A stretch of 64,000 nucleotides of DNA. Origin: an uncultured virus (IMG/VR IMGVR_UViG_3300043464_001377) (lineage: Duplodnaviria; Heunggongvirae; Uroviricota; Caudoviricetes). Under the pieces are notes generated by a model that saw nothing but the letters and a program-made list of their open reading frames with translations, did not search any database and was not told the DNA's origin. Shown here piece by piece: positions 8,120 to 47,260 of this stretch. A program made the position numbers and the translations under genes. The DNA lies in IMG/VR virus record IMGVR_UViG_3300043464_001377; one strand, 5' to 3'. Every line of letters starts with the position of its first letter. The first letter of the stretch is position 1.

Positions 8120-8168
8120 ACTTGTTCCATCGCGGGTCGATGACGATCAATGAGTGCAAGGGGGCACA

Positions 8169-11100
8169 GTGAGCGACTCCGAAAACAGAGCCTTGTCCGA
8201 CATTGTCTGGACACCCGCACGCGGGCTGTCCGAGCCCGAGATTCGTGGCATCTCGTGGAACAATTTCCTGCTGTCTGAAGAGACCTACGGCGGCCGGTGG
8301 CGGACTGAGGCCGAAGTTCGCGTCACGCCTGAGACAGCCCTCCAGTCGACCGTGGTGCTGGCGTGCTGCCGCATCTTGGCCGAGACGATCAGTTCCCTTC
8401 CCCTACACGTCTACCGGCGAGGGGAAGACGGCAGCAAAGACATCGCCCGCGATATTCCGCTGTATCGAGTCTTGTCGTTCGCTCCCAACTCCTGGCAGAC
8501 CAAGTTCGAGTTCTTCGAGCAGATGGTGATGAACCTCTGCCTGTGGGGGAACTCCTACACGCAGATCAAGAGCGGCCGGTACGGCGCTGTCTCGGAGTTG
8601 CTCAACCTCCACCCGTCTCGCATGGACGTGGAGCGGCTCGAAAACGGCCGCCTCCGCTACATGTACACGAATCCGGAGAACGGAAGACTAGAGCCGTACA
8701 CGCAAGACCAGATCATGCACGTCCGGTGGACCGCCGAGCCCGACGGCATCAAGGGCATGGTCCCAGTCGAAGTCGCACGCGAGTCGATCGCCCTCGCCAG
8801 GGCGTGCGAGATTCACGCCGCCAAGTTCTGGGCGAACTCAGCCCGGCCCGGCATGGTGCTACAGACCGACGGCTCGCTCTCGCCCGAGGCCGCCGAGCGG
8901 CTGCGAGATAATTGGGAGCGACTCCATCGCGGCGTCGACCGGGCGTACAAGACCGCGATCCTCACGAACGGACTCAAAGTCGAGCCCGTCGGCTTCACGG
9001 CCGAGCAGTCGCAGTTCGAGTCGACACGCCGCTTCCAGTCCGAGGAGATCGCGAGGGTCTATCGGTTGCCCCTCCGGCTCGTGCAGGGCCAGCCTGGCGG
9101 CAACCCGGAGATCGAGGGCCAGGACTTCGTCACCTACACGCTGGTGCCATGGCTGCGACGCATCGAGAGCGCGATCTCTCGGTCGCTGATCTACAACGAC
9201 GACCTGTTCGTCGCCGAGTTCGACGTGCGTGGACTGATGCGAGGGGACTCCAACTCTCGCGCGGGCTACTACTCCACGATGACGAACCTCGGGATTTTTT
9301 CGATCAACGACTGCCGTCGACTTGAGAACCTTCCGCCGCTCGAAAACGGCGACAAGCACTTCGTCGGCATGAACATGCAGACGATCGACGAGGCAGTCAA
9401 GCCGAAGCCCGACCCGGCAATGATGGGCGGCCCAGGAGCCCCGCCGCCGCCAGCCCAAGGCGGCGTCCCGAGCCTGCCTGAAGTCAAGACGGGCAAGGCT
9501 CCGAACCCGGCCGAGAAGGGTGAGCAGTCGAAGCCGAAAGAAGAAGGCATGCTTGTTTCTTACGGCGAAGGCAAGACCGGCCGCGTCAAGCACGTCATGG
9601 AGCAGGGCACGCTCGACCTCAAGTCTGGCGAGAAGATCGAAGTCCAGCCAGGCGAGCCCGTGGCCCTTGTCGTCGACGAAGAGACCGGCGAGGAAGCGGG
9701 CATCAAGGTCTCGCAACTCAAGCCGATCCAAGAGAAGCGGGCCCTCTCGCAGCAGAATCAGGCCCTGTACGACGCCCAGGAAGAGATCGTCAAGAAGAGT
9801 GGACGCTGGCCCCAGCAAGGCCCAAGCGGCGCCCACTACATGGAGAAGAACCCTTTCGCGTCTCGCGGCATCGCCTGCCGGAACTGCATCTACTACGAAG
9901 AGGGCGGCTCCTGCGAGATCGTCAAGGGCATCATCTCGCCCAACGCGATCTGCAAACTGTGGATCATTCCCGAAGAAAAACTCAGCATGCCAGAGTCTCG
10001 CGACTGCGGGACGGGCGCTGGCGGCTTCAAGGACGGCAACAAGTGCGCTGGCAGCAGCGACGACGGCGAGCCCGTTCGCGGTTTCCGTCGCGGCGAGGGC
10101 GATAAGAAGCAGTCTCGCGCTGCCAAGAAACTCTACCAGATGGGCACGTCTGAGCGACGCATCAAGGACTTGGTGCGACAACTCGGCGGCAAGCCTGGGC
10201 GATCGTCAGCCAAAGTCACCGGCGACAAGATCGGCATCAGAGTCCGCGACTCATCTGGCAAGGACATCTTCTACGTGGAGATGGGCTACAACGGCGCGGG
10301 CATTGTCCCCATCGGCAAGACGCTCTCGCGAGAGCAGGCGTCACAGATCGAGTCGCTCGCGAAGCCCGCGTTCCCCGACAAGATTAGCGATCGTCTCTAC
10401 AATCGCGGCAAACGGTATCCAGTCTCTGTTCATCGCGACGACGCCGTCCTCAAGACTGGCGGACGGATCGCCAAGAAGGGCAAGCAGCAGCGGGCGTACT
10501 GCCCCACGGGCGAAGGCGGCGGGATCGACAACTCGTGCGGCAGCACGACGGAGACCGCCAAGGCCAGGGACAATCGCCTCTCCAGGGAGGCCAATGCCAT
10601 CAAGGGCCCGATCGCCGCAAACGACGAGCGGCTCGCCGCCAAGGTGGACTTCAAGCCCGTCGCAGAGTCGTCCAAGAACTCTGACAGCATCCCGATGGCA
10701 AGCGACGACGCGATTCGCCTTGCATTGTCTGGAAACGTAAAGATCGACGGCCAGGAGATTCCCAAGCGAGAACTCGTCGGATCGCACCGCGAACTTGCTG
10801 AAGGAACTCCCGTCGCCCTGCGAATCGACATTCCAGCCTACGAGAAAAAGGACACGTACGCCGTCACGGTCCACAGCAAGGCGAAGTCCAAGAACGGCGT
10901 CGGCAAGGTCATTGGATTCGACTCGATCGTGACATTGTCTGGAGACGTGACGTTCGTCTCGCACGAGCCGACGGCCACAGCGATCGCAATGGGCCGCTCA
11001 AAGACTCCGCTTGCGACGGTCGTCGGCAAGTTCAAGCCGAGCCGCGAGGTTCCAGAGGACATCAACGACTGGACGGCGGTCGGCTACAACCCGAAGAAAG

Positions 11101-12299
11101 CCGCGTACTTCTACGACAAGAGGACCGGGCGTGAAGTCACCGGCGGCACCGACTCTGTCAGCATTGGCAACACGGTCTTCGTGCGAACGCCGAAGTACGG
11201 CGAGCGGTACGCCAGCGAGCAGTACAGGTCTCTGGATGACAACTCGTGGGGGCTGGAGCAGCGGGCGGAAGACTGCGGGAGAGTCGACGGCGGACTGTTT
11301 GGGCCTGGAAACAATTGCGCAGCCGACGGCGAAGGCGGCTCCAAGTCTGACCGGATCGCAGAAATGGCGATCAAGTCTATGGCCGAGACTGGAGGGTTCT
11401 CAATTCATCCAGTGTCAGAGTCAAGTCCGACGTCTGGTTACATGGTCTCGGTTGCGCCAGAGTCAGAGACCATTGTTCCATCAGCCCAAAAAGTCACAGG
11501 GCCGGTGATCGACAAGTTCTTGAAAGAAAACAAGTCTAAGTTCGAGGAGAGGCCTACACTTCACATCGGCGGCTGGATTGATTCCGAATCCAACCAAGTG
11601 TACCTTGACCTGTCGGAGCGATTTGATGACATCGACGACGCCATTGATGCGGCTGAGTCGACCAATCAACTCGCGATCTGGGACTTGAACGAGAAGAAAG
11701 AAATCAGAAAGGGCGACTACAGTGGCAGACGAACCAAAGGCAAAGGCGAAACTCGTGCGGTTCGACTTTCCGACGGGAGCGAAGGCGGAAGAGATCGCGG
11801 CGGCCATAGAGGCGGCTCGCGAGAAGATCATGGCCGAGAAGGCCGCCAAGCAGCAGACGCCCTCGTCGAAGAACTGAAGCAGTCTGGCGAGGCTGATCTC
11901 CCGAGCATCGTATTCAGGCCAACTACCGAGTCTCGCTCGGTAGTTGAGTACGACCTCGACACGGACGCGATCTACGTGTCCGACTCTCTGAATGACGAGG
12001 CCGTTGCCTCGTTCCGGCTCGCAGCAGCGAGGGGCTGGCTCTCGCAGCCCAATCCGCTCCTGCACGAACTGGCTCATCGGCATCATGCCGTGGCAGACGC
12101 CGAGTCGTACGACGCATCGGCGTCGCTCTCGTTTGACGCCGAGAACCGCGACGTCGCCAAGAGCGTTTCTCGCTACGCCGCCACGAGCCACCGCGAGTTC
12201 GTTGCTGAAGTCCTGGCTGGCCTGTGGGCCGGGAAAGAGTACGGCGACGACGTGATGCGGCTTCTCTCTTCGGTAACGAACGGAAAGTTTTCGACGTGA
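8169..12299 (+). CDS. HK97-family portal protein with ~950-aa multidomain C-terminal extension
   Basis: Portal motifs (VLACCRILAETISSLPL, PNSWQT, EEIARVYRLP, YTLVPWLRRIE, SINDCRRLENLPP), then Tudor-like, HiPIP-like CRNC..C..C, three Cys motifs and zincin HELAH; GTG start after GGGG. Confidence 0.9.
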   Translation: MSDSENRALSDIVWTPARGLSEPEIRGISWNNFLLSEETYGGRWRTEAEVRVTPETALQSTVVLACCRILAETISSLPLHVYRRGEDGSKDIARDIPLYRVLSFAPNSWQTKFEFFEQMVMNLCLWGNSYTQIKSGRYGAVSELLNLHPSRMDVERLENGRLRYMYTNPENGRLEPYTQDQIMHVRWTAEPDGIKGMVPVEVARESIALARACEIHAAKFWANSARPGMVLQTDGSLSPEAAERLRDNWERLHRGVDRAYKTAILTNGLKVEPVGFTAEQSQFESTRRFQSEEIARVYRLPLRLVQGQPGGNPEIEGQDFVTYTLVPWLRRIESAISRSLIYNDDLFVAEFDVRGLMRGDSNSRAGYYSTMTNLGIFSINDCRRLENLPPLENGDKHFVGMNMQTIDEAVKPKPDPAMMGGPGAPPPPAQGGVPSLPEVKTGKAPNPAEKGEQSKPKEEGMLVSYGEGKTGRVKHVMEQGTLDLKSGEKIEVQPGEPVALVVDEETGEEAGIKVSQLKPIQEKRALSQQNQALYDAQEEIVKKSGRWPQQGPSGAHYMEKNPFASRGIACRNCIYYEEGGSCEIVKGIISPNAICKLWIIPEEKLSMPESRDCGTGAGGFKDGNKCAGSSDDGEPVRGFRRGEGDKKQSRAAKKLYQMGTSERRIKDLVRQLGGKPGRSSAKVTGDKIGIRVRDSSGKDIFYVEMGYNGAGIVPIGKTLSREQASQIESLAKPAFPDKISDRLYNRGKRYPVSVHRDDAVLKTGGRIAKKGKQQRAYCPTGEGGGIDNSCGSTTETAKARDNRLSREANAIKGPIAANDERLAAKVDFKPVAESSKNSDSIPMASDDAIRLALSGNVKIDGQEIPKRELVGSHRELAEGTPVALRIDIPAYEKKDTYAVTVHSKAKSKNGVGKVIGFDSIVTLSGDVTFVSHEPTATAIAMGRSKTPLATVVGKFKPSREVPEDINDWTAVGYNPKKAAYFYDKRTGREVTGGTDSVSIGNTVFVRTPKYGERYASEQYRSLDDNSWGLEQRAEDCGRVDGGLFGPGNNCAADGEGGSKSDRIAEMAIKSMAETGGFSIHPVSESSPTSGYMVSVAPESETIVPSAQKVTGPVIDKFLKENKSKFEERPTLHIGGWIDSESNQVYLDLSERFDDIDDAIDAAESTNQLAIWDLNEKKEIRKGDYSGRRTKGKGETRAVRLSDGSEGGRDRGGHRGGSREDHGREGRQAADALVEELKQSGEADLPSIVFRPTTESRSVVEYDLDTDAIYVSDSLNDEAVASFRLAAARGWLSQPNPLLHELAHRHHAVADAESYDASASLSFDAENRDVAKSVSRYAATSHREFVAEVLAGLWAGKEYGDDVMRLLSSVTNGKFST

Positions 12300-15200
12300 T
12301 TTTTCTGGAAGAAGAGTACCGGGCATTCTGCCCCACCGGCGACGGCGGCGGCGTCAAGAACGACTGCTCGTCGCAGGACGGCAGCGGAGCAAGGACCGAC
12401 AACTCGTGGAAGCGGGAGCAGGGACCAGTTCGCATTGCCGGTGATGACCTGAAGCAGTCTCCTCCGGCCAAGTCGCTCGCTGGCGTGAAGGCAGTCGTCA
12501 TCATGGACGGCGAACTGGTCAACAAGTCGCTCCGCGAGGTCGGCGTCACGCTTGATCAAGCGGCCAGAGCATGCGCGGCCCTCGACCCGGAGGCCCAGGT
12601 CACGATATCCCACGGCGGGCTGCTTGAGATCATCGAGTTCATGGGAAGCGATGACCCGGAGCGGTACATCGAAGACACCGTGACGTTCACGAGCGAGATG
12701 CCCGTGGCTGGCATCGAGGGCGCTGCTCGGACTGCCGCATCGCTGACGAGGACCGAAGAAGACGGACTCGTCATGTCCTACACGATGCTGATGATCAGCG
12801 ACGAGGCCAAGCAGAAAGCCAGCGTCGCCGTCGCTCGTCACATGATGAAGGGCGCGATCGCAAGCATTACGCAGGCTGAGAAGATCGGCGTCGACAGGGT
12901 CGAGATGCTGGCCGCCGGTGATAGCGGCAAGAACTCTGACTTCAAGGGCTATCGCATCTGGCCGAGGCTCGGCTTCAACGGCGTGATTCCACGCAGGCAT
13001 GTCACGCCCACATGGTCGCTCGCAACTGGGTTCTTCAACTCCTACGGCAGCGGCATCCCAGACAAGATTCTCTCGCCTCGCGCTCGCAAAGAGAAGGCCG
13101 CAGGAGCCTTGACGATCCAGTCTCTGTACGAGACCAAGGAGGGCCAGGAGTGGTGGGAAGAGAACGGCGGCGAGATGGAGATGTCGCTCGCCGTCGGCAG
13201 CAACAGCGATCCTGGCTGGAAGCGATTCAAGTCCCTGCGTGACAGGTTCTCGAAGCGAGGCCTGGACTTGACTGACGCCTTCTTTGACGCCGAGGCTAGA
13301 GCCCTGCTTGATGGCGACTGGGCTGAGTTGCGTGCCTACTGCCCAACAGGCGAAGGCGGCGGCATCGACAATACGTGCAGCCCAGGCGGCCAGTCTTCTG
13401 CGGCTCCCGCCAAGGCGGACGACTCGTGGAAGGAGTCGAAGTCGTCTCTATCTATCTCTGGCGATGGGCTCAAAGACAAGCCGCCATTCACAGGTGCAGA
13501 CAAAGCAGGAAGCGTCGCTATTCCAAACCCGCAGGGACTTGCGGATGGAATGTCTGACGCTGGCATCAAGTCGCTCGACGAACTCGCTGCCATGAGCGGC
13601 GCGACAATTCGCGGGAGTAAGGTGACGTTCTTTGGAGCGTCAGGCGGCAACGACGGCACCGGCGCCTTCATCACCATTGATAACGAAATCCCGCTTGCCC
13701 GCGATGGCAGTGATTCGGAAGGCCAATTTGACGTCAACGTCGCTGTGTATCGGGACGACGGAGAGTATGTGCTTGGCTTCAACGGCATGTACCCAGACAA
13801 GGCTGCGACTGCCACTCGCGAGAGGGTCGCAAAAGCCACTAGCCTTATGCAGCAGGCTGTTATCGAGGCGATCGCCAGCGTCGAAAAGACAGGAATCTCG
13901 AAGGTCAAGATGAGTGCCGCTGGCGGCCCCGAGTATGAACTCAAGGGATATCGCCTGTGGCCGCAGTTTGGATTCGATGCCATGCTCGACAAGAGCAGCA
14001 AGCATTCGCTCTCCCAGGCCCCGCAGGCAGTGGTCGAGAAGTTGATGCGGACTGCGAGGCCCGATCTTTTTGCGACGCGGATCACGCCATCGCACGCTGC
14101 CCTTGTCGCGGCCCTGCCTCACAGCGACATCACCGTGCAGCACCTCGTCTCATTCCACGAAGGCGACGTCTGGTGGAACGAGAACGGCACAACTCTGAGC
14201 ATGACTCTCGACCTGTCGGACAAGAAGAGCCTCGGCTACGCCAAGTTCCAGAAACAAACGTCGCGGCTCAAGAGGCTCAAGGAGCGAAATCAGTCGCGGG
14301 CGTTCTTCGAGTGGCTCGAAGAAGAGGCTGAGTTCAGGGCCGGGGCTGACTGCGGTCGGGTCGATGGAGGCCGGTTTGGAAGCGGCAACGACTGCGCCAG
14401 CGATGGCTCGTCGTGGGAGGACGAAGAGAGCGTCGACATGGACGCGGAAGCCATTTCGTCGTCGCCGCCGTTCAAGGGCGCCGAAGTCCTCGATTCGTTC
14501 TCCGTGAACGATGTCCAGTCTCTGAAGGACACGCTCTCTGACTTCGGGAGAGTCAAAGGCGTCAAGGACGTTGTCGCAATCAGCGGCGGCGTTCGTCAGG
14601 GCGGATCAGTCGGAATCGACGCCTTCGGCGACTCCATTATCGTCAACTCCGCGATTCCAGTTGCGCCGGACGGCTCTGGTCGTCTTGGCAACATCAAGAA
14701 CATGGTGTCGCTGATGAAGGACGACGACGGGTATCTCGTCGTCAACTACGACAGCATGTCGCTGGATTCTGCCGCCATGTCATCCATCAGCGGAGACTTG
14801 GAAGATGACTCGGCCGACAGGCGTCGAATCGTCAGTCTCGTGTTGGAGCGAATGACGGAGTCGCTCTCTGTCGCCGAGGAGTCTGGAGCAATCCGGGCCG
14901 ACACGATCGCCGCCGGAACGTCGACCAGTGCCCTGCAAGGATATCGGCTGTGGCCGCAGTTTGGTTTCGATGGCGAACTCGATAGGGCCGACATCGACGC
15001 CATCAAGGAGGACATCAAACTCACGCCGTACCAGAAGCGTAGGGCACTCACAGGCCAGATGACCGTTCAGGACTTGATCGCCACGCCCGAAGGCGATCGC
15101 TGGTGGAACGAGAACGGCACGACGATTGAACTGACGCTCGACTTCACCGACCAGACCAATGCTGGCTACAAGCGTTTCGAGCGAATGAAGAAGATGCTTG

Positions 15201-18200: not shown

Positions 18201-19444
18201 TCGCTGAGACGTTCGGCCAGAACGCCGTGTACGAGAAGACCGGCAACTACGCCGCCCAAAACGCCTACGCCTCGAAGATTGGCCCCGAGATCATCAAGGC
18301 AGAGTTGGCGAAGCGGAACCGGAAGGCCCGCCGAGCCGTCGACGCCGAAGACGAGGGCGACGAGCCGCTCGGATACCAGCACCTCAAGGTGCGGCCGTGG
18401 CTGATGCGGCCAGCGACCGAGCAGCGGTCGGCCGACTGCGGCCGCGACGAGGGCGGGCGATTCGGCAGCGGCAACGACTGCGCGGCCGAGGGCAGCAGCG
18501 GCGGACCCGCCACGGCCTCGCCTCCATCGTCCAGCGGAACGTGGTCGAGCAACGAGTCGGCAACATGGCCCGCGTCCTCCCGAGACTCGTCGCCGCCGCC
18601 GATTGGCGACGGCCGGTACGGCTCGATCGACATCTCATCGCCGAAAGCAGTGAAGGCATCACTGGATGCGGCTGGCGTCGACCCGAAGTTGGCCCCCATG
18701 GTCGCCGGTGGCAGCGACGAGTCTGACGTGTTCGTCCGCCCTGCCCCAGACTTCTCCGTGGAGTTCCCAGGCTCGAAAGTCACGCCTGTGATGTTCGCCT
18801 TCGAGCGGGACTTCGCCGGGGTCGAAAGCGGCCTGCACGGCTCGTCAGTGATCGGCGTCACGGCGGCTGGCGAGACTGTCGTCTATCACAGCACTGTCAA
18901 CGTGTCAGACTCGATCAAGCAGGACGACGCGAAGCGGCACGCCGCCGCCCGAGAGTTCTATCGAGCCATGGTCTCGTCGGTGGAGGCAGCACACAAAGCG
19001 GGCGTGTCTCGCATCGTCCTCAATGCGGCCGGTAACTCGTCGGCCACGAAGGGGAGCCTGACGTCGACACCGTGGCGAGGCTACACGATCTGGCCCCGCA
19101 TGGGCTTCGACGCGCCACTCCCGTCGAGCATCAAGGCCAAACTGCCGCCAGACTTGTCTCACGCCAAGTCTCTTCTCGATCTGCACGCCACGCCCGACGG
19201 CACCCGCTGGTGGCGAGACAACGGAGAAGACCTCGACGTGAAGTTCGATCTCACGGACAGGTCGAGTCCGCAGTCCAAGATCATGGACCGCTTCATCAAG
19301 AAGTTCGGCACCGATCGTCGCGAAATGCCGCTCGGGTCTGGCGACGAGTGGCTGTCTCCCGAGGACATGCTGCGGCTTGACGAAATGTGGAACGAGATTT
19401 GGGACGACGGGGAACTGGACGACTATGAGTGGAACGATGCCTGA
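12296..19444 (+). CDS. Giant polyvalent (multi-effector) head-associated protein, ~2380 aa
   Basis: GTGA overlap with portal stop; four GYxxWPxxGF GNAT-like modules, TADIWFTR glycosylase-like, YHVT ART-like and FRVVHD zincin-like domains; seven Cys motifs. Confidence 0.8.
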   Translation: MIFLEEEYRAFCPTGDGGGVKNDCSSQDGSGARTDNSWKREQGPVRIAGDDLKQSPPAKSLAGVKAVVIMDGELVNKSLREVGVTLDQAARACAALDPEAQVTISHGGLLEIIEFMGSDDPERYIEDTVTFTSEMPVAGIEGAARTAASLTRTEEDGLVMSYTMLMISDEAKQKASVAVARHMMKGAIASITQAEKIGVDRVEMLAAGDSGKNSDFKGYRIWPRLGFNGVIPRRHVTPTWSLATGFFNSYGSGIPDKILSPRARKEKAAGALTIQSLYETKEGQEWWEENGGEMEMSLAVGSNSDPGWKRFKSLRDRFSKRGLDLTDAFFDAEARALLDGDWAELRAYCPTGEGGGIDNTCSPGGQSSAAPAKADDSWKESKSSLSISGDGLKDKPPFTGADKAGSVAIPNPQGLADGMSDAGIKSLDELAAMSGATIRGSKVTFFGASGGNDGTGAFITIDNEIPLARDGSDSEGQFDVNVAVYRDDGEYVLGFNGMYPDKAATATRERVAKATSLMQQAVIEAIASVEKTGISKVKMSAAGGPEYELKGYRLWPQFGFDAMLDKSSKHSLSQAPQAVVEKLMRTARPDLFATRITPSHAALVAALPHSDITVQHLVSFHEGDVWWNENGTTLSMTLDLSDKKSLGYAKFQKQTSRLKRLKERNQSRAFFEWLEEEAEFRAGADCGRVDGGRFGSGNDCASDGSSWEDEESVDMDAEAISSSPPFKGAEVLDSFSVNDVQSLKDTLSDFGRVKGVKDVVAISGGVRQGGSVGIDAFGDSIIVNSAIPVAPDGSGRLGNIKNMVSLMKDDDGYLVVNYDSMSLDSAAMSSISGDLEDDSADRRRIVSLVLERMTESLSVAEESGAIRADTIAAGTSTSALQGYRLWPQFGFDGELDRADIDAIKEDIKLTPYQKRRALTGQMTVQDLIATPEGDRWWNENGTTIELTLDFTDQTNAGYKRFERMKKMLARLKERNKTRSAFDDGVERRDDCEQTESGQFAKGNDCAKGDGSPSKEKEKKPRAAKKSEEPAKEPLKWTPGASHVDVFKESVEKSPTKRSDDGKKILSTSVPGATPVRGLAGKDEIDPISVGNYLVARQAEHRGRTIDTTKPLEGDDFEYMVSGIVSQVESARARGVSPNFYSPEDRRTQIEEYAKIQPLMRGGRTASGFCVGVEGPNGECEPSEGISPQAEFLFRAAQALTSPEANPYENMLRADAVLTAFFEEPDPSKAKLGSGIRIAGAGAENTLADFARLQKIIDRVGLEEARRIFTGPPIKVSDFEKFFLSKVPGTEGDRYKANDYAVAEVVPPFSIFGPKVGPFFANNTGDDEALTADIWFTRTWGRLSGELVSKSSESLAKKHASDLMASTKDIPRKELAAMGLDGRQFRTLVAQMKRTGVIPQQIADWAEARDKQYKKDKFPNPKNGTGTAERYKLDRLAVAILKNQANVMRAPTTSVMRANMIRAMREAAKRTGVSVAYMQDILWQDEQDAWGTLGSRTTTVPGEPSLYSEVIRKIVTEPANYQKRRRESKRSLGVIAEPMSLPLYSDQKGGPEQALFADFIASMDDDEFADLAVEFLTKRAKESRAFCPTGDGGGLDNSCSATDGKLKAQSAELFRGEPSFVDQDDGYIYHVTTEENAKKILSDGFSRPLGSKATVKGGAYENYSKGKVFFTEKSGLAAWKSKIEEHLFHSSDDPPPAAIIRIKKSDVSHLLSDDHVGTQDAGSQAYFIDLSKRKQKRAFCPTGDGGGVDNSCGSDDGSPAAGSPGRTQESLPKSFPRGSDKFRDAIDSVSPDPKSVWDRAKGRADTPPEKILTSAADEQTSSGSSLTPEAEKSYADLVDEIGRQYEALVAAGLKVRAWRGEGEPYGDPPGSTKPNSDKMREEVAKTGEFSFFMTERGFGTGSATPDHPMLRETKYKTADGEPMIANDLFRVVHDMVAHVRGGYSFSTNGEYNGMLTHASTLPEGAWPALFAETFGQNAVYEKTGNYAAQNAYASKIGPEIIKAELAKRNRKARRAVDAEDEGDEPLGYQHLKVRPWLMRPATEQRSADCGRDEGGRFGSGNDCAAEGSSGGPATASPPSSSGTWSSNESATWPASSRDSSPPPIGDGRYGSIDISSPKAVKASLDAAGVDPKLAPMVAGGSDESDVFVRPAPDFSVEFPGSKVTPVMFAFERDFAGVESGLHGSSVIGVTAAGETVVYHSTVNVSDSIKQDDAKRHAAAREFYRAMVSSVEAAHKAGVSRIVLNAAGNSSATKGSLTSTPWRGYTIWPRMGFDAPLPSSIKAKLPPDLSHAKSLLDLHATPDGTRWWRDNGEDLDVKFDLTDRSSPQSKIMDRFIKKFGTDRREMPLGSGDEWLSPEDMLRLDEMWNEIWDDGELDDYEWNDA

Positions 19445-21566
19445 AAAATACTCCCACATCGACTTCACCCCGCCCGACGGCGTCCGCAAAGAGGCCGAGA
19501 AGGGCCTCGCCTGGCGGCGTGAGCATGGACGCGGCGGCACGGCCGTTGGCATTGCCCGTGCGCGAGACTTGTCGAACGGCACGCAACTCTCGCCATCCAC
19601 CGTTCGTCGAATGAAGGCCTTCTTTGATCGCCACGAGATCGACAAGAAGGGCGAGGGCTGGAACCCAGGAGACGATGGCTTCCCGTCCAACGGGCGAATC
19701 GCGTGGGCTCTGTGGGGCTCCGACGCGGGGCGGGCGTACGCTCGCAAGGTCGTCGAGCAGATGAACGCCGCCGACGAGAAGGAGGGGCGGTCGCTGCGGC
19801 CATTCGGCTCGACGCAGGGCATCAAGCCCAACGTCTTTGTCGTCCACGGAGCCCCAGCCAGCGGCAAGACGTCCTACGTGATGCAGCACAAAGGCGACAA
19901 CGACGTGATCTTCGACTTCGACAAGGTGATGAGCGCCCTGTCAGGTCTGCCGCCGCACCAGAAAAACAAGAACCTGATCTCTTATTGTACGGATATCAGA
20001 GCCCTTATCATCAAAAAGGCCCTCCGGAAGCCGACAGTCGACAAGACGTGGATCATCACCACAAACATCGGCGACGAGATGAAGGGCCAACTGTCCGACA
20101 TTCCGGTCGAGTACATCCACGTCGACACTCCGAAGGAGGAGTGCCTGAAGCGAATCGAGGAAGACCCAGACCGCCAGCCCGTCGCGGAGGAGTTGCGAGA
20201 GGCTGTCGAGCGGTATTTTTCATCAGAGCAAAGGAGTGCCCCTGTGCTGCCCAACGTCGAGCGTCGGTTTCTTGGCAACTTCAGTAACGTCGAGAAGGCC
20301 GACCCCGATTTGCTTCGAGTCGAGAAGCGGGCTGATCCGAACACTGGCAAGCCGCAGACCTACGTTATCGGGTACGCGGCCCGCTTTGGGAAAGATTCGT
20401 TGCTTCTCGGGGACTTTGTCGAGAGAATTGATCCGAGTGCGTTCTCGCTTGTCGAGAGCCGCGAGGACGGCGAGGGGAGGCCGCTAGAGACTCGCTGCCT
20501 GTTCAACCACGACCCAAACCATCTCCTGGGCCGCTTTCCGACGACGATGAAGATGACCGTCGACGAGAAGGGCCTTCGGTACGAGTGTCTGCTGCCAGAG
20601 TCGCGGGCTGATTTGGCCGAGTCGATTTCTCGCGGAGACTTGCGTGGCTCAAGTTTCAGTTTCGTCGTGGCAGAAGGCGGCGAGAAGTGGAGTTACGAGA
20701 ACGGCCGGTCAACGAGACTTGTCACCAGGATCAAGTCACTGCTGGACTGCGGCCCGGTCACGTACCCTGCTTATGGCGACGCCACTGTTGCAGTAGCCAA
20801 GCGGAGTTATCAGCAGTTCCAGAAGTCTGGACACGCTGATTCCCGCAACCAGACCAAGGCTAAGGTCGCCGAAGAGTTGGCGAAGACGAAGAAGTTCCTC
20901 GAAGAGCGGGCGTTCTGTGCGACCGGCCCAGACGGAGGAATCGACAACTCGTGCAGCGCTGGCAGCGGCGGGAGCAAAGGAAGAGGAAAGTCTGGGGGCG
21001 GCAAAAAAGGCGCCAAGAAGGACAGGCCAGACACTGGAGGCTCAGGCGTAGCCAGCAGCGCAGCAAAAGGGGCGGCGATCGGGGCGGCGATCGGAGCCGT
21101 CCCAGGTGGCGCCGCTGGTGCCGGAGTTGGTGCCGTCGCAGGAGGAATCATCGGTGCGGCAAAGGCCGCCCTCGAAAAGAAGAGCGACCCGCCGTACATG
21201 GAACTCAAAAAGGGTGATCATAAAAACACTGGAAAAATGAAGGAAGCCCAAGACTTCATCGACAAGGCACGCCAGGAGCAACTCTCAAAGGGTGGCAAGG
21301 ACGGCGGCAAGTCCGACGAAGGCGGCGGCGTCCAGACATGGAGCAAGGGTGATGATTTCCCGTGGACGACCAAGCGCGTCGGCACGGACGAGGGGTATGT
21401 GCAGGGCATTCATCCAGACGGAAGCAAGACGGAGAAGTATCCGTTCAAGGGAGATGCAAGCGAGGCTTATAAGGCCGCAAGCGGCGAGATCGCCAAGAAG
21501 AAGGGCAAGCGGTCCCGCGACGTCGTTCGCGAGACGCTGGCCTTCCTGAAGGAACGGTCGAGATGA
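19437..21566 (+). CDS. HK97-family prohead protease fused to extra N-terminal domains (incl. P-loop) and a C-terminal tail
   Basis: IGYAARF, FVERIDPSAF, LFNHD, RGDLRGSSFSF, GPVTYPAY; P-loop HGAPASGKT. Confidence 0.9.
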   Translation: MPEKYSHIDFTPPDGVRKEAEKGLAWRREHGRGGTAVGIARARDLSNGTQLSPSTVRRMKAFFDRHEIDKKGEGWNPGDDGFPSNGRIAWALWGSDAGRAYARKVVEQMNAADEKEGRSLRPFGSTQGIKPNVFVVHGAPASGKTSYVMQHKGDNDVIFDFDKVMSALSGLPPHQKNKNLISYCTDIRALIIKKALRKPTVDKTWIITTNIGDEMKGQLSDIPVEYIHVDTPKEECLKRIEEDPDRQPVAEELREAVERYFSSEQRSAPVLPNVERRFLGNFSNVEKADPDLLRVEKRADPNTGKPQTYVIGYAARFGKDSLLLGDFVERIDPSAFSLVESREDGEGRPLETRCLFNHDPNHLLGRFPTTMKMTVDEKGLRYECLLPESRADLAESISRGDLRGSSFSFVVAEGGEKWSYENGRSTRLVTRIKSLLDCGPVTYPAYGDATVAVAKRSYQQFQKSGHADSRNQTKAKVAEELAKTKKFLEERAFCATGPDGGIDNSCSAGSGGSKGRGKSGGGKKGAKKDRPDTGGSGVASSAAKGAAIGAAIGAVPGGAAGAGVGAVAGGIIGAAKAALEKKSDPPYMELKKGDHKNTGKMKEAQDFIDKARQEQLSKGGKDGGKSDEGGGVQTWSKGDDFPWTTKRVGTDEGYVQGIHPDGSKTEKYPFKGDASEAYKAASGEIAKKKGKRSRDVVRETLAFLKERSR

Positions 21567-23464
21567 GTTTGCAGGCGAGGTACGCCGACCTCCTCGCCTT
21601 CGTCGAGGAGCGAGACAGGCAGTTGATGCTGCCGATGGGAGAAGACTGCGGACGTCAGTCGGGTCAGTTTGCTCCAGGCAACACCTGCGCGGCAGGCGAC
21701 GACGGAAGCCAGACAGATAGCCCGCCACGGTCTCGCCCAGACCCAGTCGCGGGCGGGCCGAGATCGAACACGTCCAACGGCTTTCCTGGGTGGTGGAACC
21801 GAGATCGTCCGCTGACGCACCGTGGAGGACTGCCTGGCCTTCCAGACATCGGATCAATCAAGGCCGACAACGCCAAGGAAGTCACGACGCTCGCCAAAGA
21901 TGCCGGGTTTCAGAGCCTCGCGTCGCTCGTGCGTTTCGGCGCCGCCGACGGCAAGAACTCAGAAATTGACATCTTGACCGAGATCGAAAGTACACGGCGG
22001 TCTGGCGAAGTCGTCAGCGCCAAGACGATCACCATCGAGTCCAAGGTTCCCGTCTACGTGGGCGGCAGGCCTTCGCCTGGGCAGCGACCAGTGGGGCACG
22101 CTGGGCTCGACGTCGCTATCCGCAAATACGGCGACGAGCCGCCGCTCGCACTATACGGGCTGTTTGACTTCGACAGCGGAGTATCTTCTGCGATCGCAAG
22201 AGAGAAGGCCTCGTCTCAGCACGGCGAGTCTGCGATCGAGCGAACTCTCGGCGCGGCGATCATTGACAAGATGATCACGTCGCTCGCCGAGGCCGAGAAA
22301 GCCGGAGCATCCAAGGCCAAGACGTTCGCAGCCGGAAGCGACTCGGATGCCACCTACAAGGGCTACAGGCTCTGGGGAAGGTTTGGCTTCGACGTCGCGC
22401 TCTCGCCTGCTCGCCTGTCTCGCATCATCGAAGACAGCAAGGGCCTGCCAGAGCCAGCCTTGTCTCCTGAGTACGAGGCCAAGGCTCTCCGTGGAGATGC
22501 TGTAACGCTCCAAGACCTTCTCAGCACCAAGGCTGGCGAGAAGTACTGGTCGAAAAACGGCAGCGGCCTGTCGCTCACGCTCGACTTCACGGACAAGAAC
22601 AGCGCCGGATACAAGCGATACCAGAAGATGCTGGAGCGAGTGAAGAAAGCCAAGGATCGAGGGCAGCGATCGTACGAGGAGTTCTGCGAGTTCGCCCTGG
22701 CGACGAGCCACGACCTCGCAGATTGGCGAGGGTTCAGGTTTGAGTCGCTGGAGTGCCGGTACGCCAGCCTGCTCGCCTTCGCCCAGTCTCGAAACTGCGG
22801 CACCGGAGAAGGCGGCTTTCAGAAGGGCAACACTTGCGCGGGCGGCAAACTCGCCGATGCCGCAGCCGGAGCGGCGTCCGGTGCGATCAAAGGCGTTGTT
22901 ATCGCCGCTGGAGCCACTGGCCCGTTCCCGCCGTACGTGATCAAGGGGGCCGCCGTCGGGGCCGCCGTCGGGGCCGTGAAGGGGCTCTACGATAACAGCA
23001 TGCAGCCCACGCGGGTCATGCAGAAGATCGACGACATCGGCACGAGCGAGAAGCAAGTGGCTGGACTTGTCGAGAGGCTCGGCGGCTCTCCGGAGTCCGT
23101 CGCGACGGTCAAGGAAGGAAAACTGAGGGTTCGCGTCAAGGACAGCAAGGGCGAGAAGGTCTTCGACGTCGAGATGGGGAAGTCTCAGTACACGATCACG
23201 CCAGCCAGAAAGTCTGGAACGCTCACGAGTGACGAGATCGCCCAGGTCAAGAAGATCGCTGAAGAGAACTCCCCCAAGGAGGTCAGCATCGTCGTGAAAT
23301 CCAAGTCGCCGTCGTATGTGGCGAAACTTGTCCGGAAGGGTTTCAAGGTCACGGCCAACGCGGCAGGCTCGTTCGTCGCCACGGTCGTCCTGCCGCTTTC
23401 GGCATCGGTTGCAGTCGCGGCAGCAGAAGGCGTAGTGGACTCTCTCAAGAAGAAGAAGCGATGA
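21563..23464 (+). CDS. Head-module protein with GNAT-like module and two Cys motifs
   Basis: GYRLWGRFGFDV...GEKYWSKNG; DCGRQSGQFAPGNTC and RNCGTGEGGFQKGNTC. Confidence 0.75.
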   Translation: MSLQARYADLLAFVEERDRQLMLPMGEDCGRQSGQFAPGNTCAAGDDGSQTDSPPRSRPDPVAGGPRSNTSNGFPGWWNRDRPLTHRGGLPGLPDIGSIKADNAKEVTTLAKDAGFQSLASLVRFGAADGKNSEIDILTEIESTRRSGEVVSAKTITIESKVPVYVGGRPSPGQRPVGHAGLDVAIRKYGDEPPLALYGLFDFDSGVSSAIAREKASSQHGESAIERTLGAAIIDKMITSLAEAEKAGASKAKTFAAGSDSDATYKGYRLWGRFGFDVALSPARLSRIIEDSKGLPEPALSPEYEAKALRGDAVTLQDLLSTKAGEKYWSKNGSGLSLTLDFTDKNSAGYKRYQKMLERVKKAKDRGQRSYEEFCEFALATSHDLADWRGFRFESLECRYASLLAFAQSRNCGTGEGGFQKGNTCAGGKLADAAAGAASGAIKGVVIAAGATGPFPPYVIKGAAVGAAVGAVKGLYDNSMQPTRVMQKIDDIGTSEKQVAGLVERLGGSPESVATVKEGKLRVRVKDSKGEKVFDVEMGKSQYTITPARKSGTLTSDEIAQVKKIAEENSPKEVSIVVKSKSPSYVAKLVRKGFKVTANAAGSFVATVVLPLSASVAVAAAEGVVDSLKKKKR

Positions 23465-40843: not shown

Positions 40844-41464
40844 ATGGCGACGGTCACGGCAATCGACGGCGGCTACATCGAGAACATCGACGACTCCAAC
40901 AGGATCATTCGCGAGATCGTCGAGGCACGCAACGCCTCAAAGTTGCAGCACGAGGCGATTCTCGCCGACGACGATGACGGCGAACTCGAAGCCGACGTGA
41001 AGAGCGCCGCCACGATGGACGGCGCGGCGCCGCTCCCTGGCGTATTCGACGAGAACCCGAAAGACCTCGTGGGCACCGGCAAACTGCCGCTGCATCTCTG
41101 GCCGACGACGGCCACGGCCATGGGCTCAATCGCCTTGCTGAACGGCGCCCTCAAGTACGGCCGCTCCAACTGGCGAGTCGTCGGCGTACGGGCGTCGATC
41201 TACGTGGACGCCTGCCAGCGGCATCTCGCCGCGTGGTTTGAGGGGCGCGAGTGCGACGAGGAGGGCGTTCCGCACCTGTCGTCCGCCCTGGCGTGCCTCG
41301 CGATCCTCGTCGACGCCGAGGCGGCTGGCAAACTCAAAGACGACCGCCAGATCAGCGGCGGCTATGCGGAGGTCGTCAAGCGGCTCACGCCGCACGTCGA
41401 GCGGCTGCGGGCCCTGCATTCAGACAAGTCTCCGAAGCACTACACGATCGGAGACAACGCATGA
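40844..41464 (+). CDS. dATP/dGTP diphosphohydrolase-domain (DUF5664-like) protein
   Basis: NPKDLVGTGKLPLHL...GALKYGRSNWR...RHLAAWFEG...PHL..A.ACLAILVDA. Confidence 0.82.
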   Translation: MATVTAIDGGYIENIDDSNRIIREIVEARNASKLQHEAILADDDDGELEADVKSAATMDGAAPLPGVFDENPKDLVGTGKLPLHLWPTTATAMGSIALLNGALKYGRSNWRVVGVRASIYVDACQRHLAAWFEGRECDEEGVPHLSSALACLAILVDAEAAGKLKDDRQISGGYAEVVKRLTPHVERLRALHSDKSPKHYTIGDNA

Positions 41465-47193: not shown

Positions 47194-47260
47194 TGTCGCA
47201 TGACGAGTGGACGTCACCCGTCGTAAAGCCCAGTCGATTCGATTTCCAAGGAGCAGCCCA

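What the first reader, a model, noticed from the sequence alone, without database searches (positions are those of the whole stretch)
9999..22840. Thirteen copies of a Cys-Gly-Cys motif punctuate four consecutive head genes: possible capsid-loading tag or protease-processed polyprotein system
Seen: motifs of type R-A-[FY]-C-P-T-G-[DE]-G-G-G-[IVL]-D-N-S-C or R-x(1-3)-D-C-G-R-x-x-G-G-R-F-G-x-G-N-x-C-A start at about 9999, 10491, 11262 (portal); 12320, 13331, 14336, 15254, 17042, 17501, 18425 (giant ORF); 20907 (protease); 21641, 22790 (633-aa ORF). Each opens a new domain and nearly all follow [EQS]-x-R. The same R|A/S context occurs at domain ends (QSRAFF, KTRSAF, GQRSYE, EQRSAP) and at the likely capsid maturation site (DSR|ALSEG). 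Established: HK97-type prohead proteases process head proteins. Inference: the protease cuts after Arg and frees many cargo domains, each with an N-terminal two-Cys tag (disulfide or metal loop) that may direct packaging or ejection, giving a modular effector-delivery system built onto portal and protease.
Basis: partly seen in the sequence, partly recalled or inferred. Interest (0 to 1): 0.85.

Follow-up and report, generated by a model that had tools for sequence, protein, structure and literature searches.

The report
Two-cysteine tag on phage head cargo
An uncultured phage marks the start of every add-on domain in its giant head proteins with the same short two-cysteine loop, placed just after what looks like the cutting site of its head-maturation protease, and the same loop recurs in hundreds of unrelated uncultured phages.

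Summary
All 13 copies lie at the stated places in four overlapping head genes: portal fusion, giant ORF, S78 protease fusion and ORF633. There are two forms, C-P-T-G-x-G-G-G-[IVL]-[DK]-N-x-C (6 copies) and C-G-x(3-4)-G-x-F-x-x-G-N-x-C (7 copies). Shuffled sequence gives none.

A profile of the motif finds 1067 protein clusters among 1.84 billion, with up to 10 copies per protein. No hit covering it came from Pfam, NCBIfam or PHROGs, and no paper holds the motif strings.

The loop is constant, but the residue three places before it depends on the lineage (R, N, K, L or aromatic). That residue is uniform within 125 of 134 multi-copy proteins. In three lineages it matches the junction between propeptide and shell domain of that lineage's major capsid protein.

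AlphaFold leaves leader, loop and linker disordered ahead of a confident GNAT-like domain.

Best reading: these are packaged polyvalent head proteins, cut by the prohead protease just before each loop, so each released module keeps the loop at its new N-terminus. Cleavage, packaging and the loop's chemistry are inferred, not shown. The exact bond cut (R|A or two residues later) is unresolved. A related window of this scan had already noted the five GNAT-like domains, but not this motif.

The parts
8154..12299 (+). Portal fusion ORF (1381 aa). It holds an HK97-type portal domain (aa 67-392) followed by three motif-started modules. Its stop TGA overlaps the GTG start of the next gene.
   Evidence: Pfam PF04860 E 3e-93 and Phage_L5_gp82 at aa 909-998; TIGR01537; overlap read.
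10005..10046 (+). Motif copy 1, variant B (CGTGAGGFKDGNKC), preceded by PESRD.
10500..10538 (+). Motif copy 2, variant A (CPTGEGGGIDNSC), preceded by QQRAY.
11274..11318 (+). Motif copy 3, variant B (CGRVDGGLFGPGNNC), preceded by EQRAED.
11859..12296 (+). C-terminal HExxH domain of the portal fusion (HELAHRHH ... SRYAATxxxEFVAE), a candidate zincin-like metallopeptidase.
   Evidence: H69, E70 and H73 are invariant in 5 of 5 aligned homologues. HExxH is also found in the aligned stretch of more distant hits. The AlphaFold model reached only pLDDT 58.6, so the fold is not established.
12296..19444 (+). Giant ORF. The ORF listing gives it from 12224; the likely start is GTG 12296. It has seven motif-started modules, four of which are paralogous modules of about 300-335 aa with a GNAT-like fold.
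   Evidence: fold.
12329..12367 (+). Motif copy 4, variant A, 11 residues after the likely start codon.
13340..13378 (+). Motif copy 5, variant A.
14351..14395 (+). Motif copy 6, variant B.
15266..15310 (+). Motif copy 7, variant B (CEQTESGQFAKGNDC).
17051..17089 (+). Motif copy 8, variant A.
17510..17548 (+). Motif copy 9, variant A.
18437..18481 (+). Motif copy 10, variant B.
19437..21566 (+). Prohead protease fusion. The likely start is ATG 19437, overlapping the end of the giant ORF. In the numbering of the ORF from 19377 it holds a conserved N-terminal domain, an AAA_33 P-loop domain (aa 153-276), an S78 protease domain (aa 325-483), a motif at aa 514 and a Gly-zipper-like tail. The ORF ends ...FLKERSR.
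   Evidence: Pfam PF04586 E 3.3e-29 and AAA_33; TIGR01543; alignment A3; start read.
20916..20954 (+). Motif copy 11, variant A (CATGPDGGIDNSC), 31 residues after the S78 domain.
21563..23464 (+). ORF633, with an ATGA overlap onto the protease stop. It holds leader + motif + a fifth GNAT-like module, then motif + Gly-zipper + a small domain paralogous to portal aa 618-782.
21647..21688 (+). Motif copy 12, variant B, after a 28-residue leader.
22796..22837 (+). Motif copy 13, variant B.
23740..25227 (+). Major capsid protein with an N-terminal propeptide (delta-like) of about 185 aa.
   Evidence: Pfam PF05065 at aa 194-474; sequence.
24283..24306 (+). Predicted capsid maturation site D-S-R-A-L-S-E-G (aa 182-189), which shares [DE]-[SQ]-R-A with the motif flanks.
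   Evidence: Conserved in 14 of 14 capsid homologues down to 41% identity. It aligns to ETRALSTG of PDB 9GYI, whose capsid protein is reported as N-terminally processed.

Best explanation
The four genes encode 'polyvalent' head proteins: strings of accessory domains fused to, or encoded next to, the portal and the prohead protease of an uncultured tailed phage. Each module starts with a two-part signal.

Part 1 is a short leader ending in a lineage-specific protease site, here E-x-R-[AG]-[FYW]. The same site separates the capsid protein's propeptide from its shell domain.

Part 2 is a universal 13-15-residue glycine-rich loop closed by two invariant cysteines, followed by a flexible G/S/D-rich linker and then the folded domain.

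The most likely mechanism is as follows. The polyproteins co-assemble into the prohead, anchored by the portal, the protease or leader helices. The prohead protease then cuts within the 3 residues before the first Cys. This frees each module inside the capsid with the Cys loop at or next to its new N-terminus.

Shown here: the anatomy, the spread of the motif, the boundary position, the disorder of the tag region, and the covariation of the flank with the capsid junction.

Inferred: cleavage, the enzyme responsible, packaging and ejection.

The loop's own job is open. It is the same in lineages with unrelated portal, protease and capsid families. Its partner is therefore more likely something common to all of them (a metal ion, a disulfide or redox switch, DNA, the shared protease fold, or another loop) than a lineage-specific structural protein.
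For: 1. Motif and statistics: (13 copies; 0 of 100 shuffles reach the 6 variant-A DNA matches).

2. Spread. The variant-A DNA pattern occurs in 98 stretches of IMG/VR contigs. The profile A1 finds 1067 proteins at E<=1e-3, 346 at <=1e-10 and 47 at <=1e-30 among 1.84e9 representatives, with up to 10 stretches per protein.

3. Head context. Of the 98 non-redundant motif ORFs, 89 were scanned (9 short fragments were dropped). Among them 17 carry portal PF04860, 14 S78, 1 Portal_Mu, 3 MuF, 6 ART-PolyVal and 2 ADPrib_exo_Tox; 45 have no Pfam family. In every portal and S78 fusion whose motif position I checked, the motifs lie C-terminal to that domain (positions against domains).

4. Boundary position: spacing and terminal distances. 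Residues 1-36 (leader + loop + linker) have pLDDT below 50, against about 90 for residues 40-340. The 12 residues after the loop are G/S/D/A-rich.

5. Both Cys are kept in 532 of 540 profile hits. Seven of the rest are truncated local alignments and one has C...R.

6. Lineage-specific flank. Residue -3 is uniform in 125 of 134 proteins with at least 2 copies; label shuffling gives a mean of 32.4 and a maximum of 49 in 1000 trials. Positions -14 to -6 and -4 are uniform in only 1-7 of 130 proteins. N only occurs in 74 proteins, R only in 53, K only in 10 and L only in 3.

7. Covariation with the capsid junction.
- R lineage: [DE]-[SQ]-R-A in 14 of 14 capsids.
- N lineage (portal PF06381, DUF2213/phrog_760, capsid DUF6260): N-A in 14 of 14 capsids at the start of the Pfam domain, mostly in P-V-[FTVL]-N-A-T-S-L-R-K-E-E-W. 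The motif flank there is [TV]-x-N-[AV]-F-C.
- K lineage (PF04860, S78, PF05065): E-Q-K-[SA]-L-I-D-D-x-T-S-G-G or W-H-K-T-I-F-A-D-A-T-S-G-G in 3 of 3 capsids. The motif flank there is x-x-K-[AQ]-F-C.
- The rare variant-B copies of the N lineage also have N where the R lineage has R.

8. Natural termini match the predicted product ends. Most full-length protease ORFs end ...F-L-K-[ED]-R-x-R, and in L077 the same position reads on in frame into S-R-G-F-C-P-T-G. The giant ORF starts 11 residues before its first Cys.

9. Precedents. T4 internal proteins carry 10-residue capsid-targeting propeptides removed by gp21 at L/I-x-E, the motif also used in the capsid protein (PMC9026906, passages). Iyer et al. 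2017 predicted processing of phage polyvalent proteins by embedded peptidases, including assemblin-like ones (PMC5512222, passages). The capsid protein of 9GYI, which carries the aligned ETRALSTG, is reported as N-terminally cleaved.
Against: No protein-level data exist for any member, and all relatives are metagenomic.

Flank types could partly reflect common descent of the copies within a lineage rather than protease specificity. The match to the capsid junction was recognised after the fact, and in the K lineage it rests on only 3 capsids.

The loci of the N, K and L lineages were fetched with patterns that fixed the -3 residue. The unbiased evidence for uniformity comes only from the profile hits.

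The bond cut is ambiguous. R-A is invariant, while the next residue is L, Q or M in capsids. Yet the 9GYI authors give residue 93 as the first mature residue, which implies A-L|S.

Variant B has its R at -4 or -2, not -3. One of the 13 copies has no nearby R.

The capsid site has no loop, so the loop is not needed for cleavage and its role is unexplained.

The GNAT-like assignment of the main cargo module is weak: no Foldseek hit at E<=1e-3, and VIA Z of 5.2-6.9.
Confidence: 0.5

Rival explanations
1. The motif is an uncleaved structural element. In this reading it is a small disulfide- or metal-stabilised knuckle that acts as a hinge or staple between domains of polyproteins that stay intact, and the lineage-specific flank is inherited along with the loop.
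For: Both Cys are essentially invariant. The -1 aromatic residue is conserved in 139 of 139 variant-A copies, though the collection pattern did not fix that position. Some phage polyvalent proteins are known to be transferred full-length (PMC5512222 passage). AlphaFold gives no fold for the region.
Against: Two Cys without His cannot form a self-contained tetrahedral metal site. The flank matches the capsid propeptide junction in three lineages, which an inert hinge does not explain. Stand-alone genes keep a leader of 10-35 residues before the loop, and protease ORFs end at the flank sequence.
Confidence: 0.2
2. Cleavage does occur at the motif, but a different enzyme does it. The candidates are the zincin-like HExxH domain at the end of the portal fusion, or a host protease acting after injection.
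For: HExxH plus a downstream E-F-V-A-E is conserved in 5 of 5 homologues and in more distant motif-bearing proteins. Iyer et al. proposed zincin-like metallopeptidases as the main processing enzymes of polyvalent proteins (PMC5512222, abstract and passages).
Against: The flank covaries with the capsid maturation junction, and capsid maturation is the prohead protease's job. The flank type also follows the head-protease family: S78 for R and K, DUF2213/phrog_760 for N, and Mu-type for the aromatic type. I did not survey how many motif-bearing phages carry the HExxH domain.
Confidence: 0.12
3. The conserved stretch is chiefly a recombination junction. Here a shared sequence at module borders lets phages swap cargo domains, with no role for the peptide itself.
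For: The same domain families follow either variant A or variant B and occur in portal, giant, protease or stand-alone genes (232 motif-started segments fall into 83 clusters, and the largest has 24 A-started and 21 B-started members).
Against: Third codon positions differ freely among the six variant-A copies of the window. The motif is kept across lineages that share no detectable DNA similarity. Both Cys are invariant at the protein level.
Confidence: 0.05
4. The loop is self-cleaving, with intein-, Hedgehog- or Ntn-like chemistry using the first Cys or the conserved Asn.
For: A Cys follows the predicted cut, and an Asn lies two residues before the second Cys in many copies.
Against: The element is 13-15 residues long and is predicted to be unstructured, far short of a Hint or Ntn fold. 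The Asn is replaced by Pro in most N-lineage copies (D-P-T-C). The lineage-specific -3 residue argues for an external protease.
Confidence: 0.03

Closest known systems
T4 capsid targeting sequences of internal proteins (IPI-III, Alt), processed by prohead protease gp21
   Same: A short N-terminal propeptide on proteins packaged in the head. It is removed at a short motif that the same protease also uses on the major capsid protein. It is modular and can be moved to unrelated cargo (PMC9026906, passages).
   Different: T4 uses L/I-x-E and has nothing like a conserved Cys loop after the cut. Here the signal is repeated internally in polyproteins, and the part after the cut is the most conserved part and is shared across unrelated phage lineages. 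There is no sequence similarity to the T4 motif.
Polyvalent proteins of phages and conjugative elements (Iyer, Burroughs, Anand, de Souza, Aravind 2017, PMC5512222)
   Same: Giant multidomain proteins encoded beside portal and terminase, with fusions to portal, MuF and assemblin-like protease. GNAT, ART and zincin-type domains are present, and processing by embedded peptidases is predicted.
   Different: The main text of that paper contains neither 'cysteine' nor 'linker', so no boundary motif of this kind is described there. Its supplementary files on an FTP site were not seen. Most domains here have no Pfam match.
Propeptide processing of head and ejection proteins in giant phages (phiKZ gp175, SPN3US gp245)
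   Same: One prohead protease cuts many head proteins at a short shared motif (PMC9026906 passages; PMC5694885, PMC7411985 and PMC10052503 seen as search listing and abstract starts only).
   Different: Those proteases cut after Glu in separate gene products. No conserved element after the cleavage site is reported in what I read.
HK97 capsid maturation and the cf-PICI EcCIEDL933 capsid (PDB 9GYI)
   Same: An S78-type protease removes an N-terminal delta domain. The window's D-S-R-A-L-S-E-G aligns to E-T-R-A-L-S-T-G of 9GYI, which is reported to be cleaved.
   Different: These are capsid proteins only, without cargo polyproteins or a Cys loop. That HK97 cuts at K|S is recalled from memory and was not checked here.
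MuF-fused toxins and encapsulin cargo-loading peptides
   Same: Short or modular elements that bring variable cargo into an HK97-fold shell. MuF, ART-PolyVal and ADPrib_exo_Tox domains occur in motif-bearing proteins of Mu-type lineages.
   Different: Encapsulin loading peptides are C-terminal, lack Cys and are not cleaved (recalled). MuF is a folded domain, not a 13-residue loop.

Membership tests
Polyvalent proteins (Iyer et al. 2017) | One polypeptide with 2 to 15 disparate domains | tested here: met
   The portal fusion has at least 5 segments, the giant ORF has 7 motif-started modules, and the protease fusion has at least 4 parts.
Polyvalent proteins (Iyer et al. 2017) | Encoded in a phage head/packaging module with a portal-terminase system | tested here: met
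   TerL 6815-8119, portal, S78 protease and capsid lie in one co-directional, overlapping gene string.
Polyvalent proteins (Iyer et al. 2017) | Hallmark effector or processing domains (MPTase, ART, GNAT, MuF and others) | tested here: inconclusive
   The GNAT-like fold is only weakly supported (no Foldseek hit at E<=1e-3; VIA Z 5.2-6.9, with acetyltransferase-type entries making up most of the top 50). HExxH is conserved but its fold model is poor. ART-PolyVal, MuF and ADPrib_exo_Tox are found in relatives, not in the window.
Polyvalent proteins (Iyer et al. 2017) | Packaged in the virion and delivered with the DNA | not testable with these tools
   There is no cultured member and no proteomics.
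Capsid-targeting, protease-removed propeptides (T4 CTS type) | A short N-terminal leader ahead of the mature protein | tested here: met
   The giant ORF has an 11-residue leader and ORF633 a 28-residue leader. The first motif lies within 60 aa of the N-terminus in 53 of 150 profile hits.
Capsid-targeting, protease-removed propeptides (T4 CTS type) | The cleavage motif is shared with the major capsid protein's maturation site | tested here: met
   The flank matches the capsid junction in the R (14/14), N (14/14) and K (3/3) lineages. This is sequence correspondence only.
Capsid-targeting, protease-removed propeptides (T4 CTS type) | Demonstrated cleavage by the prohead protease and targeting into proheads | not testable with these tools
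   This needs protein experiments.
Capsid-targeting, protease-removed propeptides (T4 CTS type) | The T4-type L/I-x-E motif | tested here: not met
   The flanks are E-x-R-[AG]-F, [TV]-x-N-[AV]-F, x-x-K-[AQ]-F or G-[LVI]-x-L-A-F. The system works like a CTS but is not a sequence relative of it.
HK97-family prohead protease (Pfam PF04586 / TIGR01543) | A profile match above the curated cut-off | tested here: met
   PF04586 scores 102.6 bits against a cut-off of 21. TIGR01543 scores 57.1 bits, just under its cut-off of 59.
HK97-family prohead protease (Pfam PF04586 / TIGR01543) | Conserved catalytic His and Ser | tested here: inconclusive
   H378 and S425/S426/S428 are invariant in 15 of 15 aligned proteases. 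I did not map them onto a solved protease.
Self-contained zinc knuckle or zinc ribbon | Four Cys/His ligands within the element | tested here: not met
   The element has only two Cys and no His. A site shared between two chains is not excluded.
Intein / Hint autoprocessing domain | A Hint fold of more than 100 residues with a conserved terminal Asn | tested here: not met
   The element is 13-15 residues long with pLDDT below 50. The Asn is replaced by Pro in most N-lineage copies.
Bacterial lipoprotein lipobox | [LVI]-[ASTVI]-[GAS]-C after a signal peptide (consensus recalled) | tested here: not met
   Position -1 is F, Y or W (variant A) or mostly D (variant B). The motifs are internal and repeated.
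RTX calcium-binding repeats | Tandem GGxGxD nonapeptides forming a beta-roll (consensus recalled) | tested here: not met
   Single copies lie at least 83 residues apart.

The most novel reading that the evidence does not exclude
The leader-plus-loop is a universal, portable 'cargo cassette' of tailed phages. Any domain placed behind it is loaded into the prohead and released by whichever maturation protease the phage uses. The two-cysteine loop left at the new N-terminus would then act as a redox or metal switch. Oxidised or metal-bridged in the virion, it would hold cargo together or to a partner Cys; a conserved Cys lies just upstream of the capsid cleavage site in 14 of 14 R-lineage and 12 of 14 N-lineage capsids. 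Reduced in the host cytoplasm, it would release the cargo.
Probability: 0.15. Interest if true: 0.85.

Novelty: new variant of a known kind. Interest (0 to 1): 0.7.

Why it matters
Phages that inject proteins with their DNA are a large and poorly charted source of host-takeover and anti-defence enzymes. What is missing is a way to recognise which proteins are cargo and where one cargo unit ends.

If this reading holds, a 13-residue signature marks cargo modules in more than a thousand protein clusters of uncultured phages. It also gives their boundaries, and it reads out each phage's protease specificity from sequence alone.

It would also offer a compact tag for loading foreign proteins into HK97-type shells. 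Finally, it raises a defined chemical question: what does an invariant Cys-x11-13-Cys loop do inside a capsid?

Tried and rejected
- A complex prediction of the S78 domain (aa 290-500, alignment A3) with the 31-residue leader-loop peptide (alignment A1) gave no verdict: score 0.00 against a mark of 0.32, and controls were not run. It says nothing either way.
- tblastn of a repeated module against 50,697 GenBank phage records found nothing. The protease and capsid gave only distant hits outside the motif.
- The genome-contig scan found 3 stretches on 2 MAG contigs among 185,579 species genomes.
- A literature string search for five motif fragments found only two unrelated parechovirus papers. 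A search for DUF2213 gave nothing useful on function (listing only).
- The idea that a C-L-C in the capsid propeptide pairs with the loop was dropped as a general mechanism, because it is present in only 11 of 14 capsids and is absent from three motif-bearing lineage members.
- The AlphaFold model of the HExxH domain was too poor (pLDDT 58.6) to search with.
- Single-linkage clustering of the segments lumped everything together and was replaced by clustering with a coverage filter.
- The capsid gene of the L-type and Mu-type (aromatic) lineages was not within the fetched loci, so the covariation test could not be extended to them.
- The window's own assembly is not held. The nearest record, G001, is a 19-kb fragment of nearly the same phage.

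Full report
**What is there**

The window is a phage genome segment. TerL lies at 6815-8119. A 1381-aa portal fusion, a giant ORF, an HK97-type (S78) prohead protease fusion and a 633-aa ORF follow, then the major capsid protein, a head-tail connector, very large tail-region ORFs and an integrase.

The four motif-bearing genes are chained by overlaps. The portal stop TGA overlaps a GTG at 12296, which is the likely start of the giant ORF. The protease ATG at 19437 overlaps the giant ORF's last codons. ORF633 starts with an ATGA overlap on the protease stop.

Six are variant A, C-P-T-G-[DE]-G-G-G-[IVL]-[DK]-N-x-C, with one copy reading C-A-T-G-P-D-G-G-I-D-N-S-C. Seven are variant B, C-G-[RT]-x(1-2)-x-G-G-x-F-x-x-G-N-x-C, with one copy reading C-E-Q-T-E-S-G-Q-F-A-K-G-N-D-C.

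A back-translated variant-A pattern hits six times in the window and never in 100 shuffles. The six DNA copies differ at synonymous positions. In the giant ORF 14 of 17 cysteines belong to motifs.

**Module architecture**

Cutting the proteins at the motifs and comparing the pieces shows five paralogous modules of about 300-335 aa, 23-35% identical to each other: four in the giant ORF and one in ORF633. There is also a pair of related small domains (portal aa 618-782 and ORF633 aa 412-633). Several unrelated modules complete the set, each preceded by a motif.

AlphaFold on one module with its upstream flank (45-row alignment) gives mean pLDDT 81.6. Residues 40-340 are at about 90, but residues 1-36 (leader, loop and linker) are below 50.

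The domain's structural neighbours are almost all GNAT acetyltransferases, though weakly so. Foldseek's best E-value is 6.4e-3, and VIA Z-scores are 5.2-6.9, with acetyltransferase-type entries making up most of the top 50 rows.

Other parts of these proteins:
- a Phage_L5_gp82-like piece;
- a conserved HExxH ... E-F-V-A-E domain at the end of the portal fusion, whose fold model was poor;
- an AAA_33 P-loop domain inside the protease ORF;
- glycine-zipper-like hydrophobic stretches right after the motif in the protease tail and in ORF633 (sub-threshold).

**Spread**

The variant-A DNA pattern occurs in 98 stretches of IMG/VR contigs. It occurs in only 3 stretches, on two MAG contigs, among the genomes of 185,579 species. 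GenBank phages hold no relative of the repeated module.

From the IMG/VR loci I collected 139 distinct variant-A and 54 variant-B instances. Variant A reads:

E(-5, 108/139)-x-R(-3, 126/139)-[AG](-2, 133/139)-[FYW](-1, 139/139)-C-[PA]-T-G-x-G-G-G-[IVL]-[DK]-N-[SDT]-C-[GS]

At least 12 G/S/D/A-rich residues follow. The Cys, Thr and Gly positions were fixed by the search pattern, but the flanks were not.

Of the 98 non-redundant motif ORFs, 89 were scanned with Pfam; nine fragments of 148-213 aa were dropped. The result was 17 HK97-type portals, 14 S78 proteases, 1 Mu-type portal, 3 MuF, 6 ART-PolyVal, 2 ADPrib_exo_Tox, 2 DUF5824, 1 DUF7178 and 1 GNAT, with 45 ORFs matching no family. In every portal and protease fusion whose motif position I checked, the motifs follow the portal or protease domain.

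A profile of 115 diverse 31-residue instances (A1) was run against 1.84 billion representative proteins. It found 1067 proteins at E<=1e-3, 346 at <=1e-10 and 47 at <=1e-30. Proteins reach 4059 aa and carry up to 10 stretches each. Only the best 150 were examined further.

Ten of these were looked up. All come from metagenome sources, and the only names given are 'hypothetical protein' or 'GNAT superfamily N-acetyltransferase'.

No Pfam, PHROGs or NCBIfam hit covers the motif in the proteins scanned. No paper in the library contains the motif strings. The polyvalent-protein paper contains neither 'cysteine' nor 'linker' in its main text; its FTP supplements were not seen.

**The key result: a constant loop with a lineage-specific flank**

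In the 150 best profile hits there are 456 variant-A copies. Spacing between motifs is at least 83 aa (median 262, n=335). The last motif lies at least 30 aa (median 348) from the C-terminus. The first motif lies within 60 aa of the N-terminus in 53 of 150 proteins. Both cysteines are present in 532 of 540 profile matches; seven of the others are truncated alignments and one has C...R.

The residue at -3 is N in 271 copies, R in 117, K in 38 and L in 18. It is uniform within a protein: N only in 74 proteins, R only in 53, K only in 10 and L only in 3. Of the 134 proteins with at least two copies, 125 are uniform at -3. Label shuffling gives a mean of 32.4 and a maximum of 49 in 1000 trials. 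Positions -14 to -6 and -4 are uniform in only 1-7 of 130 proteins. The copies within a protein have therefore diverged everywhere except in the loop and at -3, -2, -1 and partly -5.

The flank types go with different head machineries:
- R and K types: PF04860 portal, S78 protease and PF05065 capsid.
- N type: PF06381 portal, a DUF2213/phrog_760 protein and a DUF6260/linocin-like capsid. Of 14 ORFs tested in that position, 12 match phrog_760, and two of those also match 'head maturation protease' PHROGs.
- Aromatic type (Y/F/H-A-F): Mu-type portal, MuF and a Mu-type head protease.

**Covariation with the capsid maturation junction**

In the window's lineage the capsid has H-G-V-x-[DE]-[SQ]-R-A-[LQM]-x-[EG]-[GA]-[VI]-N-[SA]-x-G-G in 14 of 14 homologues down to 41% identity. 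This is the same [DE]-[SQ]-R-A that precedes the loops.

In the N lineage N-A stands exactly where the Pfam capsid domain begins in 14 of 14 capsids, mostly in the context P-V-[FTVL]-N-A-T-S-L-R-K-E-E-W. The loop flank there is [TV]-x-N-[AV]-F-C.

In the K lineage 3 of 3 capsids have E-Q-K-[SA]-L-I-D-D-x-T-S-G-G or W-H-K-T-I-F-A-D-A-T-S-G-G. The flank there is x-x-K-[AQ]-F-C.

Even the two variant-B copies found in N-lineage loci have N where the R lineage has R.

Natural gene ends fit the same picture. Most full-length protease ORFs stop at ...F-L-K-[ED]-R-x-R. In one relative (L077) the same position runs on in frame into S-R-G-F-C-P-T-G and a further module.

**An experimental anchor, and a caveat**

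The closest solved capsid by sequence is PDB 9GYI (E 8.4e-5). Its E-T-R-A-L-S-T-G-V-P-A-D-G-G aligns to the window's D-S-R-A-L-S-E-G-V-N-S-A-G-G. The preprint that deposited it says the protein 'undergoes N-terminal cleavage' to a mature form starting at residue 93. It also says the protein shares the N-terminal motif SxGxxAD with HK97 (10.1101/2025.02.11.637232, passages).

By the numbering, residue 93 is the Ser after A-L. That supports maturation within this element. However, it would put the cut two residues after R-A, corresponding to [AG]-[FYW]|C in the cargo and so to an N-terminal cysteine.

Two points argue for R|A instead. R-A is invariant while the next residue varies (L/Q/M). The spacing to the G-G also matches HK97's K|S site as I recall it. 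The bond is therefore unresolved. Both options lie within the three residues before the first Cys.

**Interpretation**

The anatomy matches the logic of T4's capsid-targeting propeptides. There, a 10-residue leader brings internal proteins into the prohead core and is removed by gp21 at the same short motif used in the capsid protein (PMC9026906, passages). It also matches the prediction that phage polyvalent proteins are processed by embedded or neighbouring peptidases (PMC5512222, passages).

What is new is the second half of the signal. The loop is retained after the cut, is more conserved than the cut site, and is identical across lineages whose portal, protease and capsid belong to different families. 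Its partner is therefore unlikely to be a lineage-specific structural protein.

Two cysteines alone cannot build a closed zinc site. A disulfide, or a metal site shared between chains, a contact with DNA, or docking on the shared protease fold all remain possible. I could not discriminate among them. The one complex prediction attempted gave no verdict.

**Rivals**

- An uncleaved hinge or staple does not explain the capsid-junction match.
- Cleavage by the HExxH domain is possible, but it fits less well with the flank tracking the head-protease family.
- A pure recombination junction is contradicted by the free synonymous variation.
- Self-cleavage is implausible for a 13-residue unstructured element whose Asn is not universal.

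**Limits**

Everything about cleavage, packaging and ejection is inferred. The loci of the N, K and L lineages were fetched with patterns that fixed the -3 residue, so the independence of the flank types rests on the profile search. The K-lineage test has three capsids. The L and aromatic lineages could not be tested because no capsid gene lay in the fetched DNA. Only 150 of the 1067 profile hits were inspected.

Noticed in passing
window 11859-12296 (+): The portal fusion ends in a small domain with invariant W-x-S-Q-P-N-P-x-L-H-E-L-A-H-R-H-H and S-R-Y-A-A-T-x-x-x-E-F-V-A-E. This looks like a zincin-type metallopeptidase. Homologues occur in other motif-bearing proteins (HEASH, HELGH).
   Followed up: partly
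window 9876-9953 (+), portal fusion aa 575-600: A separate four-cysteine cluster, C-R-N-C ... C ... C, lies just before the first motif. It may be a zinc ribbon. Only a sub-threshold Pfam hit (DUF7346) was found nearby.
   Followed up: no
window 21063-21212 and 22838-22987 (+): Gly/Ala-rich hydrophobic 'glycine-zipper'-like stretches directly follow the motif in the protease tail and in ORF633 (sub-threshold Gly-zipper_YMGG hits). They are conserved in position across 12 protease homologues and could be membrane-active or self-associating segments.
   Followed up: partly
window 19437-20300 (+): The protease ORF carries two extra N-terminal parts. One is a highly conserved domain of about 110 aa (phrog_2859, unknown function). 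The other is an AAA_33 P-loop kinase-like insert that is present in some relatives and absent in others.
   Followed up: partly
window 23740-24290 (+), capsid propeptide: R-W-C-x-D-H-G lies just upstream of the predicted cut and is conserved in 14 of 14 capsid homologues. A C-L-C at aa 78-80 is conserved in 11 of 14. N-lineage capsid propeptides also keep one Cys (G-R-P-C-V-T-V-N-T-G, 12 of 14). This Cys is a possible partner for the cargo loops, but that is untested.
   Followed up: partly
   Followed up: partly
window 40844-41464 (+): An ORF matches the N-terminal domain of dATP/dGTP diphosphohydrolase (PF18909, E 6e-22). This may hint at modified DNA bases in this phage.
   Followed up: no
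window 45311-46639 and 47207-48556 (+): A TROVE (Ro60-like) + VWA protein lies beside an AAA_5 MoxR-like ATPase in the higher-GC right-hand part of the window.
   Followed up: no
L181:728-2272 (-) and L181:16257-17174 (-): In an L-type motif phage the locus around the five-motif protein also encodes a thioredoxin-like domain protein and a 5-hmdU DNA kinase. The former may bear on the redox state of the loops.
   Followed up: no
L138:11240-13702 (-), L104:12735-14564 (+), L135:4979-5797 (-): N-lineage head modules include a portal fused to ADPrib_exo_Tox, a NUDIX-MuF fusion and a class 3 lipase. Sigma-70-like genes lie between the portal and capsid genes in L125 and L159.
   Followed up: no
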